From Escherichia coli (GTDB lineage: Bacteria; Pseudomonadota; Gammaproteobacteria; Enterobacterales; Enterobacteriaceae), in the NCBI RefSeq assembly GCF_003018255.1, contig NZ_CP027440.1: DNA of 64,000 bases, one strand, 5' to 3'. Made by a program: the position numbers and the translations under genes. Of this stretch, positions 2,426 to 59,665 are shown one piece after another. Numbering within the stretch: position 1 is the first letter of the stretch; every line of letters starts with the position of its first letter. Under the pieces are notes generated by a model. The model worked only from the letters and a program-made list of their open reading frames with translations. It had not been told where the DNA came from and made no database searches.

Positions 2426-3916
2426 TTAACTTTTGGTTTTGACTAAATCGTTTTTGGCGCGGCCAAATGGCACGGCACCGCTAAATGGTTTGCCGTCGAT
2501 AGCGTCATGAGTACGCAATGCTTCCGGGCGCAGCCAACGCTGAACGCGGGAAGGCATATCCAGACCAATCAGCAGGATCACCACAAATGTCAGACTGAAC
2601 GAGAGCGATGCCAGCGCAGTACCCAGATCCAGACGTTGAGCGATCAACGCGCCGATGATTGGGGCCAGTGCACCGCCCAATGCGCCGACGTTGTAGGTAA
2701 AGCCCAGGCCCGCTGCACGCTGGTCGGTATCGAAATAACCGCCAATCAGTTTCGGTAAGATCCCGGCGATCCCTTGTCCAAGCATTTGCTGGAAGAACAG
2801 TAACAGACCGAGCACCCAGACGTTTGCGCCGCCAATCGCAAATACCGGAATAATCAGCAGCTGCGAGGCCAGCAGACTACAAACGTACGCTTTGCGGGTT
2901 CCCAGCCAGTCACCGAGGAAGCCACCGACGCAGCACCCCACCGCCGCGCCAAAGCCACTAAAGAACAGCACATTGGCGACAGTATGCGGGTCATAAGCCA
3001 GATCGGTTTTCAGATACGTTGGCAGCAGCGCCTGAATCGGCCATGAGTAGAGGAAAGCAAACAACACGACCACCATCAGCATTACGCCCGTTGGCCAGCG
3101 TTTGCCCGTACTCTGCACCATAAAGCTGATAAAGATTGCGGCGCATAACAGCCCGAGTACAGCGACGATTGCGGCATTTTGCAGGTTACCGGCGAAGCAG
3201 AACCACAGCGCAGTAGCCGCCGCCAGCGTCATTACGATATTGGCAATGCGATGTTCACCACGGTAAAGAATGTCTACCATCGTGCGTACTGGTGCTTTAC
3301 CCCCGTGTTTCTCTTTCCAGTCTTCCGCTTCCGGGATGTTTTTACGCAGCCAGAGAGCAAAGATGATTGGCAAAATGCCGATAAAGAACAGCGCTCTCCA
3401 GCCCCAGACCGGAACCACCAGACTATAGACCTGAGCGGCAACGACGGCCCCCACAGAGAAGCCTGAAATCAAAAAACCACTGGCTTTGTTACGCAGATGT
3501 TTTGGCCAGCTTTCAATGACATAGGTGGCGCTGGAACCGTATTCACCCGCCATCCCCATGCCGATGACCAGACGCGCGATAAACATGGTGATGTAGCCTG
3601 GCGCAAAGCCGCAGGCCAGCGTCCCGGCCGAGAAGAGAACGATGCTGGTGACCATTGCCAGACGACGCCCGTAGCGGTCACCCATAGCGCCGAGCATCAG
3701 GCCGCCGAACCAGCGAGAGATAAAGGCTGCGGAGATCAGACTTGCCGCCTGCACCGTCGTCAGCCCGAATTCACCCTGTACTTCGGTGAGTACCAGGGCG
3801 ATTAAAACGAAATCAAAACCGTCAAGCAGATATCCCAACCAGGCAGCGGAAAATGCGCGCCATTGTGCACGGTTGAGATGGCGATACCACGGGATATTCT
3901 GGGTTGTAGTACTCAT
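2426..3916 (-). CDS. nanT: Sialic acid transporter (MFS)
   Basis: Trimmed to [14 protein letters not shown]... (496 aa); matches E. coli NanT. Confidence 0.9.
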
Positions 3917-3986
3917 TGTGAGTCTCCCGCGGTGGGCGATGCCCACACGCTTTGGTATGAAAATTGTAGGGTACAGATGCGTTTAT

Positions 3987-4018
3987 TTCCCCTCACCCGG
4001 TAGGGGCGAGCGAGGGGA
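3987..4018. repeat. GC-rich imperfect palindrome TTCCCCTCACCC...GAGCGAGGGGA between nanA and nanT (copy 1 of 2)
   Basis: Inverted arms CCCCTC / GAGGGG read directly; near-identical ends to the element at 21836..21869. Confidence 0.6.
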
Positions 4019-4025
4019 AAACAAC

Positions 4026-4919
4026 TCACCCGCGCTCTTGCATCAACTGCTGGGCCAGCGCCTTCAGTTCTGGCAGATATTTTTCATCTACCGGTCCAAA
4101 CGGTTTGCGGCACAGCGGCACAGAAACGACATCCATATAATGCAGGACAGTTTTCAGGCCGCGGAATACGCCCGTTTTGATCAGTAAATCAATGACTTTG
4201 TTGCACTCAGTTTGCAGTTTCTGCGCGGTCTGGATATCGCCTTCTTTCAGCGCCTTCACGATCCCCTGATATCGCCAGCCCATGATGTTGTAAGTACTGC
4301 CGATACCACCATCAGCGCCTGCCAGCAAGCCGGAAGCGAAGATTTCGTCGTAACCGTTATAGAGCACCAGATCAGGATGTTCACGACGGATCTGTTCCAT
4401 CTGATAGAGATCGCCAGAAGTCTGTTTCAGCGCACCGACGCCAGGCAACGTAACCAGGGTGTTGATCTGATCCAGGGTCAGTTTTACCCCACTCAGGGCT
4501 GGAATGTTGTACACCACCATCGGCAAACCATCCGCCGAATCAATAATTGCCCGATAGTGATCGCAGTGTTCTTCAAAGCTGAAAGGATAGTAGAACGGCG
4601 TGACGGCGGAGACGGCATCGAAGCCATAACGTTTAGCCGATGCCGCAAGTTGTTGGCTTTCGGCGGTGCTGACGCAACCGACGTGGGCGATGAGTTTAAT
4701 CTTACCTTTCGCCTCTTCAGCGACGATTTCCAGTACCTGTTCACGCTCGGAAAGGCTTTGTACAAAGGCTTCGCCGGTAGAACCACCCACGTATAAACCG
4801 TCGATGCCCTGCTGAATATTGAACTGAACCAGGCGACGCAGACTCGCTTTATCCAGTGCTTGTTGTTGATCAAAAGGAGTCAGGAGTGCGGCCATTACGC
4901 CACGTAAATTCGTTGCCAT
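4026..4919 (-). CDS. nanA: N-acetylneuraminate lyase
   Basis: 297-aa ORF matches E. coli NanA ([16 protein letters not shown]...). Confidence 0.95.
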
Positions 4920-16517: not shown

Positions 16518-16882
16518 TCTCTGCCCCGTCGCTTCTGGCGGCGGGGAAAATGTTGCTTTTCCCTCTCACCCCCCCTGCTTTCTCCTGCGATTAATTTAAC
16601 GAATAGTGCGTTTTATCGCGACATATCATTCACATAATGAATACATGGGTTAAAAAAAGCACATTATGCAAAATTCATTATCTAATTGAAAAGAATAGAA
16701 TTAATAATAAATAATCGTGTTTTTAATTCTTTTTTGTTATTAAAACTCACATTTTTAACACTTAGTATCAACTGAAACAGTTAGCGTGGTATTAATTAGT
16801 TCAATAATTAGTGTATACTTGATTTTGTGATATGGGTCACGAAACAAAGGCCCAGCTAAAAGATTATGTCGAGGTAAAAATC

Positions 16883-20863: not shown

Positions 20864-21793
20864 ATGGAACGACTAAAACGCATGTCGGTGTTTGCCAAAG
20901 TAGTTGAATTTGGCTCTTTTACCGCCGCCGCCAGACAGCTACAGATGAGCGTTTCGTCCATCAGTCAGACGGTGTCAAAACTGGAAGATGAGTTACAGGT
21001 AAAGCTGTTAAACCGTAGTACACGCAGCATTGGCCTGACTGAAGCCGGCAGAATTTACTACCAGGGCTGCCGTCGGATGCTCCATGAAGTGCAGGATGTT
21101 CATGAGCAACTGTATGCCTTCAATAACACCCCCATCGGGACGCTGCGCATTGGCTGTTCTTCAACTATGGCACAAAATGTTCTCGCCGGGCTGACAGCAA
21201 AAATGCTGAAAGAATACCCAGGTTTGAGCGTCAATCTGGTTACCGGAATTCCTGCCCCCGACCTGATTGCCGATGGTCTGGATGTGGTGATCCGCGTCGG
21301 CGCGTTGCAGGATTCCAGCCTGTTTTCCCGCCGTCTGGGCGCGATGCCGATGGTGGTGTGCGCCGCGAAAAGCTATCTCACACAATACGGCATACCGGAA
21401 AAACCCGCCGATTTGAGTAGTCATTCATGGCTTGAATACAGCGTGCGGCCCGACAATGAATTTGAACTGATCGCACCGGAAGGGATCTCGACTCGCCTGA
21501 TCCCACAAGGAAGATTTGTGACTAATGATCCGATGACGCTGGTGCGCTGGCTGACGGCGGGTGCCGGGATCGCCTACGTGCCGCTGATGTGGGTGATCAA
21601 CGAGATCAATCGTGGGGAACTGGAGATCCTGCTGCCGCGTTATCAGTCAGATCCACGCCCGGTTTATGCGTTATATACCGAAAAAGATAAGCTGCCGCTG
21701 AAGGTACAGGTCGTGATCAACTCGCTGACGGATTATTTTGTTGAGGTCGGTAAATTGTTTCAGGAGATGCACGGGCGCGGGAAAGAGAAGTAA
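20864..21793 (+). CDS. aaeR: LysR-family activator of aaeXAB
   Basis: 309-aa ORF, divergent from aaeX; matches E. coli AaeR. Confidence 0.9.
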   Translation: MERLKRMSVFAKVVEFGSFTAAARQLQMSVSSISQTVSKLEDELQVKLLNRSTRSIGLTEAGRIYYQGCRRMLHEVQDVHEQLYAFNNTPIGTLRIGCSSTMAQNVLAGLTAKMLKEYPGLSVNLVTGIPAPDLIADGLDVVIRVGALQDSSLFSRRLGAMPMVVCAAKSYLTQYGIPEKPADLSSHSWLEYSVRPDNEFELIAPEGISTRLIPQGRFVTNDPMTLVRWLTAGAGIAYVPLMWVINEINRGELEILLPRYQSDPRPVYALYTEKDKLPLKVQVVINSLTDYFVEVGKLFQEMHGRGKEK

Positions 21794-21835
21794 TTCATAT
21801 TGTACTGTTACGTTGTACAAACCTGTGCCAACGGG

Positions 21836-21869
21836 TTCCCCTCACCCTAACCCCAGAGGAGCGAGGGGA
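21836..21869. repeat. GC-rich imperfect palindrome TTCCCCTCACCC...AGCGAGGGGA between the convergent aaeR and tldD (copy 2 of 2)
   Basis: Shares both ends (TTCCCCTCACCC and AGCGAGGGGA) with the element at 3987..4018. Confidence 0.6.
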
Positions 21870-21920
21870 CCGTTCGTGCACGTAGAAAGATTAATTATCC
21901 TTCTGAAAATACTGAAATTA

Positions 21921-23381
<1,461 letters not shown>

Positions 23382-23413: not shown

Positions 23414-23447
23414 GCCGGATGCGGCGTGAACGCCCTGTCCGGCCTAC
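23414..23447. repeat. REP (palindromic unit) element between yhdP and tldD
   Basis: GCCGGATGCGGCGTGAACGCCCTGTCCGGCCTAC closely matches the REP/PU consensus. Confidence 0.75.
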
Positions 23448-54319: not shown

Positions 54320-54439
54320 ATGTCTGGCAGTTCCCTACTCTCGCATGGGGAGACCCCACACTACCATCGGCGCTACGGCGTTTCACTTCTGAGTTCGGCA
54401 TGGGGTCAGGTGGGACCACCGCGCTACTGCCGCCAGACA
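54320..54439 (-). rRNA. rrfF: 5S rRNA, distal copy of rrnD
   Basis: 120-nt reverse-complement match to E. coli 5S rRNA. Confidence 0.9.
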
Positions 54440-54476
54440 AATTCTTTTCTAATCTGCCGAACTTTAACCTAAAAAG

Positions 54477-54552
54477 TGGTGCTGATACCCAGAGTCGAAC
54501 TGGGGACCTCACCCTTACCAAGGGTGCGCTCTACCAACTGAGCCATATCAGC
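54477..54552 (-). tRNA. thrV: tRNA-Thr (anticodon GGU)
   Basis: 76-nt reverse-complement match to E. coli tRNA-Thr; CCA end present. Confidence 0.9.
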
Positions 54553-54564
54553 ACGCTAAATTTG

Positions 54565-54684
54565 ATGCCTGGCAGTTCCCTACTCTCGCATGGGGAGACC
54601 CCACACTACCATCGGCGCTACGGCGTTTCACTTCTGAGTTCGGCATGGGGTCAGGTGGGACCACCGCGCTAAGGCCGCCAGGCA
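54565..54684 (-). rRNA. rrfD: 5S rRNA, proximal copy of rrnD
   Basis: 120-nt reverse-complement match to E. coli 5S rRNA. Confidence 0.9.
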
Positions 54685-54781
54685 AATTCTGTTTTATCAA
54701 CACGTCTCGTTATGACATGTCGATTTAATCTGTATCAGGCTGAAAATCTTCTCTCATCCGCCAAAACATCTTCGGCGTTGT

Positions 54782-57686
<2,905 letters not shown>

Positions 57687-57860
57687 TCACAACCCGAAGA
57701 TGTTTCACTTCAGAGTTGCGAAAATTTGAGAGACTCACGAACAACTTTCGTTGTTCAGTGTTTCAATTTTCAGCTTGATCCAGATTTTTAAAGAGCAAAA
57801 CTTCGCAGTGAACCTTTGCAGGTACACTCTGAAGTATTTTTTATTTAATCACTACAGAGA

Positions 57861-57936
57861 TGGTGGAGCTATGCGGGATCGAACCGCAGACCTCCTGCGT
57901 GCAAAGCAGGCGCTCTCCCAGCTGAGCTATAGCCCC
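57861..57936 (-). tRNA. alaU: tRNA-Ala (anticodon UGC), spacer tRNA
   Basis: 76-nt reverse-complement match to E. coli tRNA-Ala. Confidence 0.9.
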
Positions 57937-57978
57937 ATAACATGTAGTTAAAACCTCTTCAAATTTGCCGTGCAAATT

Positions 57979-58055
<77 letters not shown>

Positions 58056-58123
58056 GTAGAGGTTTTACTGCTCATTTTCATCAGACAATCTGTGTGAGCA
58101 CTGCAAAGTACGCTTCTTTAAGG

Positions 58124-59665
<1,542 letters not shown>

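What the first reader, a model, noticed from the sequence alone, without database searches (positions are those of the whole stretch)
21836..21869. Unassigned GC-rich palindrome present in two copies (also at 3987..4018)
Two 32-34 bp elements share both ends exactly (TTCCCCTCACCC ... AGCGAGGGGA) and differ only in the centre, which suggests a dispersed repeat family distinct from the classical REP unit at 23414..23447. This copy lies between the convergent 3' ends of aaeR and tldD. A looser relative may sit downstream of argR (about 16520..16580, ...TTTTCCCTCTCACCCC...). I cannot place it in a named family (Box C, ERIC or BIME variant) from memory.
Basis: seen in the sequence. Interest (0 to 1): 0.35.

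Follow-up and report, generated by a model that had tools for sequence, protein, structure and literature searches.

The report
Decayed Box C (TMECO) repeat copies
The two GC-rich palindromes are worn-down copies of Box C (also called PIT or TMECO), a repeat family already described in E. coli, so the finding is real but ordinary.

Summary
Both elements sit at the stated coordinates and share 12 nt and 10 nt ends, and the pattern occurs 3 times against 0 in shuffles. They are not a new family.

**aaeR-tldD copy.** In K-12 MG1655 this spacer holds a full three-block Box C/PIT/TMECO element. It is number 14 in Table 1 of Holder et al. 2015 (PMC4666352). The window strain carries an allele missing one 6-bp unit of the middle block. 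Across about 5,400 E. coli genomes the spacer comes in 132-, 126- and 120-bp classes. One genome has an IS inserted in the element. The C-rich half reads as a hexamer array (TTCCCC|TCACCC|TAACCC|TCTCCC), so loss of whole hexamers fits replication slippage.

**Second copy.** It lies inside the nan operon, 6 nt after the nanA stop codon and upstream of nanT. It is fixed in E. coli. At the same position, Pseudocitrobacter has a full inverted Box C pair and E. albertii has a perfect two-block hairpin. The E. coli copy is therefore a collapsed Box C remnant.

**Other points.** The proposed argR-downstream relative is not supported. Neither copy has a terminator-like U-tract, and neither keeps the three blocks needed for the published triplex. 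Function is most likely none, or at most a generic mRNA hairpin. Novelty: already known.

The parts
21836..21869 (-). Decayed allele of Box C/TMECO locus no. 14 (type A, 'mm'). On the minus strand it reads TCCCCTCGCTCC-TCT-GGGG[6 bp missing]-TTA-GGGTGAGGGGAA. In + coordinates: block 3 = 21838-21847, loop TAA = 21848-21850, remnant of block 2 = 21851-21854, loop AGA = 21855-21857, block 1 = 21858-21868.
   Evidence: pairwise alignment to K-12 and to TMECO 16/19/22; nhmmer E=1.7e-4 over profile positions 1-36; allelic series.
21830..21874 (.). Extended hairpin. The unique flanks AACGG (21830-21834) and CCGTT (21870-21874) add 5 pairs around the repeat. These flanks are kept in all six intact allele sequences of E. 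coli compared (one has a single substitution).
   Evidence: fold; alignment A2.
3987..4018 (-). Collapsed Box C remnant in the nanA-nanT intercistronic spacer. On the mRNA (minus) strand it reads TTCCCCTCGCTCG-CCCCTAC-CGGGTGAGGGGAA. Block 1-like arm, type-B 'CCG' loop and block 3 are kept; the middle block is lost. The stem starts 6 nt after the nanA UGA.
   Evidence: fixed in 5,408 E. coli genomes; full inverted Box C pair at the same position in Pseudocitrobacter L013; perfect two-block hairpin in E. albertii L008.

Best explanation
Both elements are degenerate copies of the known enterobacterial Box C / PIT / TMECO intergenic repeat (consensus CCCTCNCCC-N3-6-GGGNGAGGG-N3-GGGNGAGGG). The aaeR-tldD copy is an allele of a published full-length locus that has lost one 6-bp unit of the middle block. 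The C-rich strand of the repeat is a cryptic hexamer array (TTCCCC|TCACCC|TAACCC|TCTCCC), so loss in 6-bp steps most likely comes from replication slippage. The nanA-nanT copy is an older remnant, fixed in E. coli. It keeps only the two outer, mutually complementary blocks, either of one type-B element or of an inverted A+B pair. What remains in each case is an imperfect hairpin that can no longer form the three-block intrastrand triplex described for the intact repeat. Shown: family identity, orthology, the allelic series, the outgroup states and the absence of a terminator-like tail. Inferred: the slippage mechanism, the direction of change (full to deleted), and the view that the remnants are neutral passengers whose only likely activity is that of a generic stable stem-loop in the tldD 3' UTR and the nanA-nanT spacer.
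For: PMC4666352 Table 1 lists TMECO no. 14 at MG1655 3,390,529-3,390,494. This falls between aaeR (ends 3,390,449) and tldD (3,390,583), and the K-12 sequence shows the three blocks. The window allele aligns to the K-12 spacer with one 6-bp gap plus 2 substitutions in the element, and to TMECO 16/19/22 with one 6-bp gap plus 1 substitution. A profile of the 23 published TMECOs hits 21867-21838(-) at E=1.7e-4. Sixty records were taken at even steps from 5,421 E. coli records: 31 in the 126-bp class (one of them 125 bp), 21 at 132 bp, 7 at 120 bp, and 1 IS-disrupted. Sequenced alleles differ by whole hexamers. The nan copy carries the type-B CCG loop and a block 3 one G shorter than consensus. 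Pseudocitrobacter faecalis has a type-A TMECO that matches the consensus plus an inverted type-B copy with one mismatch, at the same position after the nanA stop and with homologous flanks. E. albertii has CCCTCACCCG-CCCCCTAC-CGGGTGAGGG there. E. cloacae carries an inverted Box C pair in its tldD-aaeR spacer. BLAST of the K-12 element finds a median of 18 places per E. coli genome, almost all chromosomal, which agrees with 23 TMECOs in K-12. Holder et al. already describe degenerated TMECOs and collapse of inverted pairs into hairpins, which they call the 'palindrome effect'.
Against: Neither window copy matches the strict three-block consensus. The nan copy alone is not significant against the profile (E=3.6), so its membership rests on the loop and block motifs and on one outgroup genus. 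The full-length K-12 and O157 alleles have loop AAA, whereas all shortened alleles have AGA. The sampled full-length alleles are therefore not the direct parents, and gene conversion between copies cannot be excluded. The nan copy is invariant in the 6 E. coli sequences compared (window, K-12 and 4 fetched records) and is length-stable in 5,408 genomes. That is unlike the unstable tldD locus and could mean it is under selection.
Confidence: 0.88

Rival explanations
1. A previously undescribed dispersed palindromic repeat family, separate from REP, Box C and ERIC.
For: The two copies share exact ends and fail the strict TMECO pattern. No Rfam family covers them.
Against: The K-12 orthologue of one copy is a published TMECO. 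An allelic series connects the full and deleted forms. There is a profile hit at E=1.7e-4. A full Box C pair sits at the orthologous nan site in Pseudocitrobacter. Part of the 'exact' shared end is a lineage-specific SNP.
Confidence: 0.02
2. The aaeR-tldD hairpin is a bidirectional intrinsic transcription terminator for the two convergent genes.
For: It lies 42 nt after the aaeR stop and about 47 nt after the tldD stop. It forms a stable stem on both strands (-24.2 and -28.5 kcal/mol). No other terminator-like site was found in the spacer.
Against: There is no U-run after the stem on either strand. PIT/Box C elements showed no promoter or terminator activity in the study of Hoyne & Maher 2002, as summarised in PMC4666352. 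The population tolerates 132/126/120-bp alleles and an IS insertion.
Confidence: 0.05
3. The nanA-nanT remnant has been co-opted as an intercistronic RNA element. Possible actions: a 3'-exonuclease barrier that stabilises the nanA segment (as REP does in malE-malF), or a hairpin close enough to the stop codon to disturb termination and lower NanA (as reported for REP within 15 nt of a stop codon; Liang, Rudd & Deutscher 2015, recalled from memory, not retrieved here).
For: It is on the mRNA strand and the stem starts 6 nt after the UGA. The hairpin is strong and well defined (-28 kcal/mol, z -5.2, ensemble frequency 0.58). It is fixed and length-stable in 5,408 genomes. E. albertii keeps the stem, with A/C where E. 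coli has G/U, so pairing is retained as G.U on the mRNA strand.
Against: The G.U asymmetry is inherited from the family consensus: block 1 of the 'mm' types carries G opposite the T of block 3. Most transitions in a C/A-rich arm give wobble pairs anyway. Citrobacter, Enterobacter sp. and RIT691 carry REP-like or unrelated sequence at this position, so no specific element is required. No paper mentioning such an element was found.
Confidence: 0.15
4. Chance similarity of two unrelated GC-rich hairpins.
For: Short C-rich words are common: 1-mismatch matches to CCCCTCACCC occur 5 times against 2.4 expected.
Against: The two-ended pattern has 0 occurrences in 100 shuffles. Both copies carry family-specific loops, TTA and CCG.
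Confidence: 0.01

Closest known systems
Box C = PIT (potential intrastrand triplex) element = TMECO (Bergler 1992; Hoyne et al. 2000; Holder et al. 2015, PMC4666352)
   Same: Block sequences CCCTCGC.. and GGGTGAGGGG. Type-A TTA or type-B CCG second loop. Strictly intergenic location. The orthologous K-12 site is listed as TMECO no. 14. The decay modes (mutated TMECO, collapse of inverted pairs to a hairpin) are those the authors report.
   Different: The window copies lack the middle G block, fail the three-block consensus, and by sequence cannot form the purine-motif triplex. They are remnants, not intact members.
REP / BIME elements
   Same: Short GC-rich imperfect palindromes in 3' UTRs and intercistronic spacers. 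In Citrobacter the same two spacers hold REP-like units instead.
   Different: No GCCGGATG...CCGGC type arms. A true REP sits at window 23414-23447 and is unrelated in sequence.
ERIC / IRU
   Same: An enterobacterial intergenic imperfect palindrome.
   Different: ERIC/IRU is listed at 127 bp typical length, whereas these are 32-34 bp and derive from a 36-bp Box C core. No alignment to an ERIC consensus was run.

Membership tests
Box C / PIT / TMECO | Three-block pattern CCCTCNCCC-N3-6-GGGNGAGGG-N3-GGGNGAGGG | tested here: not met
   0 matches in the window. The K-12, O157, E. cloacae and Pseudocitrobacter sequences at the same spacers do match. The window copies keep blocks 1 and 3 only.
Box C / PIT / TMECO | Orthology of the site with a catalogued family member | tested here: met
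   aaeR-tldD copy: TMECO no. 14 at MG1655 3,390,494-3,390,529, with flanks identical apart from one SNP. nan copy: not in the K-12 list of 23, but a type-A TMECO matching the consensus plus an inverted type-B copy with one mismatch sit at the same position in Pseudocitrobacter L013.
Box C / PIT / TMECO | Sequence similarity to a profile of the 23 K-12 members | tested here: inconclusive
   nhmmer gives E=1.7e-4 over the full profile for the tldD copy, but E=3.6 for the nan copy.
Box C / PIT / TMECO | Second loop of type A (TTA) or type B (CCG) | tested here: met
   The tldD copy has TTA and the nan copy has CCG next to GGGTGAGGGG.
Box C / PIT / TMECO | Intergenic, chromosomal, multi-copy in E. 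coli | tested here: met
   Both copies are intergenic. The K-12 element finds a median of 18 places per genome; 67 of 93,635 places are on plasmids.
Box C / PIT / TMECO | Ability of the G-rich strand to form an intrastrand purine-motif triplex | not testable with these tools
   By sequence the third strand is missing, so a triplex is not expected. CD/NMR or chemical probing would be needed.
REP / BIME | REP consensus arms (GCCGGATG...CATCCGGC-like imperfect palindrome; consensus recalled from established literature) | tested here: not met
   Direct reading against the REP at 23414-23447 shows no shared arms.
ERIC / IRU | Imperfect palindrome of typical length 127 bp with a conserved central inverted repeat | not tested
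   No ERIC consensus was aligned. Length (32-34 bp against 127 bp) and the proven Box C origin make membership implausible.
Intrinsic (Rho-independent) terminator | GC-rich stem followed by a U-run | tested here: not met
   No terminator-like site on either strand at either locus.

The most novel reading that the evidence does not exclude
The collapsed Box C hairpin 6 nt downstream of the nanA stop codon has been domesticated as an intercistronic RNA element that sets the NanA:NanT expression ratio, by mRNA-segment stabilisation or by interference with termination. This would give a Box C derivative its first demonstrated function.
Probability: 0.12. Interest if true: 0.3.

Novelty: already known. 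Interest (0 to 1): 0.1.

Why it matters
It matters little for discovery: the family, its degenerate forms and its instability are already published. The case is useful as an annotation lesson. Current RefSeq K-12 annotation shows no repeat feature at either site, and strict three-block pattern searches miss two-block remnants. The aaeR-tldD spacer also gives a clean natural example of Box C decay in 6-bp steps, with 132/126/120-bp alleles at roughly 35/52/12 % in a spread sample of 60 records. That supports a slippage mechanism for the 'genomic instability' previously attributed to these repeats.

Tried and rejected
- **Rfam:** a gathering-threshold scan of the whole window found only rRNA, tRNA and StyR-44, and nothing at either site.
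- **MAFFT alignment with published TMECOs:** alignment A1 of the short elements mis-registered the blocks because of end gaps. I replaced it with pairwise global alignments and a profile search.
- **Genome-contig scan:** It returned E. albertii, Citrobacter, Enterobacter and Pseudocitrobacter among others, but no Salmonella or E. fergusonii.
- **argR-downstream candidate:** rejected. It has no G-rich partner, no profile hit, and no Box C at that place in 14 other species.
- **Terminator hypothesis:** rejected for lack of a U-tract.
- **Literature:** a search for a described nanA-nanT stem-loop found nothing relevant. The REP-near-stop-codon paper could not be retrieved, so it is cited from memory only.
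- **G.U asymmetry:** I considered whether wobble pairing on the minus strand proves RNA-level selection. I rejected this as evidence because the G is part of the family's 'mm' consensus.

Full report
**1. The observation**

The window is E. coli chromosome, running from the nan operon through argR and aaeR/tldD to an rrn operon.

- Positions 21836-21869 (+) read TTCCCCTCACCCTAACCCCAGAGGAGCGAGGGGA.
- Positions 3987-4018 (+) read TTCCCCTCACCCGGTAGGGGCGAGCGAGGGGA.
- The 12-nt left end and the 10-nt right end are identical in the two copies.
- The two-ended pattern TTCCCCTC-N12-22-GAGGGGA occurs at these two sites only, and in none of 100 dinucleotide-preserving shuffles.
- Both fold into strong hairpins. 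The minus strand folds better (-28.5 and -28.0 kcal/mol) than the plus strand (-24.2 and -19.7), because two positions pair as G.U only on the minus strand.

The first copy lies between the convergent 3' ends of aaeR (stop at 21793) and tldD (21921-23366, minus). It lies between the nanA stop (4026-4028, minus) and the nanT start (3914-3916, minus). The stem begins 6 nt after the UGA.

**2. What it is: the aaeR-tldD copy**

A literature search for Box C led to Holder et al. 2015, NAR 43:10126 (PMC4666352). That paper equates three names: Box C (Bergler 1992), the PIT elements of Hoyne and Maher, and 'TMECO'. It gives the consensus CCCTCNCCC-N3-6-GGGNGAGGG-N3-GGGNGAGGG.

Its Table 1 lists 23 copies in MG1655. 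Number 14 is CCCTCGCCCCTTTGGGGTGAGGGTTAGGGTGAGGGG at 3,390,529-3,390,494, antisense. That position is inside the aaeR-tldD spacer: aaeR ends at 3,390,449 and tldD at 3,390,583. The K-12 sequence shows the intact three blocks.

A global alignment of the K-12 and window spacers is collinear, with one SNP in the flanks. Within the element it shows one 6-bp gap and two substitutions. Against TMECO nos. 16, 19 and 22 the window element differs by the same 6-bp gap and a single C>T. A profile HMM built from the 23 published copies hits 21867-21838(-) over its full length at E=1.7e-4. No canonical three-block element exists anywhere in the window.

**3. Population picture at aaeR-tldD**

The 126-bp spacer was searched against 5,426 complete E. 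coli genomes and matched 5,421 records. Sixty records taken at even steps down the ranking fell into these classes:

| Class | Rows of 60 | Comment |
|---|---|---|
| 126 bp | 31 (one is 125 bp) | window-like |
| 132 bp | 21 | K-12/O157-like, full element |
| 120 bp | 7 | two units lost |
| disrupted | 1 | IS insertion |

The identity bands agree with this: 49.5% of records are at 95% identity or above, and 50.5% fall at 90-95%.

I fetched representatives and aligned them. On the plus strand the C-rich half reads as a hexamer array:

- O157 (132 bp): TTCCCC|TCACCC|TAACCC|TCTCCC|CAAAGGGGCGAGGGGA.
- K-12 (132 bp): same, but TCACCC as the fourth unit.
- WCHEC96200 and the window (126 bp): the fourth unit is missing.
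- ECL27977 (126 bp): the second unit is missing instead.
- Rb-23 and 81009 (120 bp): both the second and fourth units are missing.
- An E2348/69 derivative: an IS4-like ISEc13 is inserted in the element.

Whole-hexamer losses between CCC runs are what replication slippage would produce. That mechanism is inferred, not shown.

The window allele carries an extra G>A (GGAGCGAGGGGA where WCHEC96200 has GGGGCGAGGGGA). The 'exact' 10-nt right end shared with the nan copy is therefore partly a lineage-specific coincidence. The exact 54-bp window allele is present at 99% identity or above in 1,426 of 5,440 matching records.

**4. What it is: the nanA-nanT copy**

This copy is the same in K-12 apart from one T in the flanking T-run. 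It is present in 5,408 of 5,426 genomes, always at 95% identity or above and at 130-131 bp over a 131-bp query. Four of the lower-identity records were fetched, and their differences lie outside the hairpin.

On the mRNA strand it reads TTCCCCTCGCTCG-CCCCTAC-CGGGTGAGGGGAA. That gives a block-1-like arm, the type-B CCG loop and block 3, with no middle block. Alone it is not significant against the profile (E=3.6), so I looked at outgroups.

One DegQ-centred scan of the species-representative genomes with 10-kb flanks covered all three sites of interest. The results at the nan site were:

- **Pseudocitrobacter faecalis (L013):** the spacer begins, a few nucleotides after the nanA stop, with a type-A TMECO matching the consensus on the opposite strand. 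This is followed by an inverted type-B copy with one mismatch on the mRNA strand, and then by flanks homologous to E. coli (AAACGCATC..., CATACCAAAGCG-GTGGGCAT...).
- **E. albertii (L008):** has the perfect two-block hairpin CCCTCACCCG-CCCCCTAC-CGGGTGAGGG.

The Escherichia element is therefore a collapsed Box C. It derives either from the outer blocks of an inverted A+B pair or from a type-B copy that lost its middle block. Holder et al. describe exactly this as the 'palindrome effect' and 'degenerated TMECO'. Citrobacter, Enterobacter sp. Bisph1 and RIT691 carry REP-like or unrelated sequence at that position.

In the tldD-aaeR spacer, E. cloacae has an inverted Box C pair and the Citrobacter species have REP units.

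**5. The third candidate**

The tract downstream of argR (about 16559-16575) is a C/T-rich run that follows the argR terminator hairpin.

- It has no G-rich partner.
- It matches the C block only at the 1-mismatch level, where chance gives 2.4 hits and 5 are seen.
- The profile does not hit it.
- None of 14 other species has a Box C there.

It is not a family member.

**6. How it works**

- **Published work on intact elements.** Isolated G-rich strands form a stable triplex in vitro. No triplex was detected in vivo. No promoter or terminator activity was found, and the elements are associated with local sequence variability.
- **The window copies.** They lack the third block, so only a hairpin remains. 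Neither has a U-run after the stem on either strand, so they are not intrinsic terminators.
- **The G.U asymmetry.** Better pairing on the minus strand is inherited from the family's 'mm' consensus, where block 1 is CCCTCGCCC and block 3 is GGGTGAGGG. It is not evidence of RNA-level selection here.
- **Best reading.** These are neutral, decaying repeat remnants. The tolerance of 132/126/120-bp and IS-disrupted alleles at tldD supports this.
- **A possible exception.** The nan copy is fixed and length-stable, lies on the mRNA strand 6 nt after a stop codon, and sits in a highly structured spacer (-57.7 kcal/mol, z -5.2). A generic hairpin role, either as an exonuclease barrier or through interference with termination as reported for REPs, cannot be excluded. 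Nothing supports it directly, and I found no paper describing such an element.

**7. Comparison and novelty**

The tldD copy is a decayed allele of a catalogued Box C/TMECO locus. The nan copy is a Box C remnant by motif content and by the state of the orthologous site in an outgroup. Both fail the strict three-block definition and so are remnants rather than intact members. They are unrelated to the REP at 23414-23447 and far too short for ERIC, whose typical length is 127 bp. The family, its degeneration and its instability are published. This is already known, and interest is low.

Noticed in passing
window 3932-3946 (minus strand is the mRNA): A second small hairpin, GUGGGCAUCGCCCAC, lies just 5' of the nanT ribosome-binding site (GGGAGA). 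Its stem is conserved in E. albertii and Pseudocitrobacter while the loop varies (AUC / AUU / AUAA). It might affect nanT translation initiation or be a protein site.
   Followed up: partly
L004 (NZ_LT903847.1, E2348/69 derivative), aligned to window 21794-21920: An IS4-like ISEc13 element is inserted inside the Box C remnant of the aaeR-tldD spacer and replaces the aaeR-proximal part of the spacer.
   Followed up: partly
L008 20395-21365 (E. albertii): Downstream of aaeR there is at least 970 bp of unrelated sequence, and no tldD 3' end within the locus. The aaeR-tldD junction is therefore rearranged or carries an insertion in this species.
   Followed up: no
L009, L075, L013 (Citrobacter spp., Pseudocitrobacter), aaeR-tldD and nanA-nanT spacers: The same two spacers that hold Box C remnants in E. 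coli hold REP-like units (GCCGGATG.../...CCGGCCTAC) in Citrobacter and other genera. These 3'-end spacers seem to be recurrent landing sites for different palindromic repeat families.
   Followed up: partly
window 23414-23447: A classical REP unit (GCCGGATGCGGCGTGAACGCCCTGTCCGGCCTAC) lies between tldD and yhdP. The RefSeq K-12 feature table returned for this stretch shows no repeat features at all.
   Followed up: no
window 54322-59665 (minus): An rrn operon with two 5S genes separated by a tRNA, two spacer tRNAs, and an Rfam StyR-44 match at 57694-57793 next to the 23S 5' end.
   Followed up: no
window 4013-4022 versus L001 7672-7680: The T-run between the nanA stop and the hairpin differs by one T between the window strain (GTTGTTTT) and K-12 (GTTGTTT). 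Most rows of the spread sample of E. coli genomes that are not 100% identical to the window span 130 bp rather than 131, consistent with the shorter form.
   Followed up: partly
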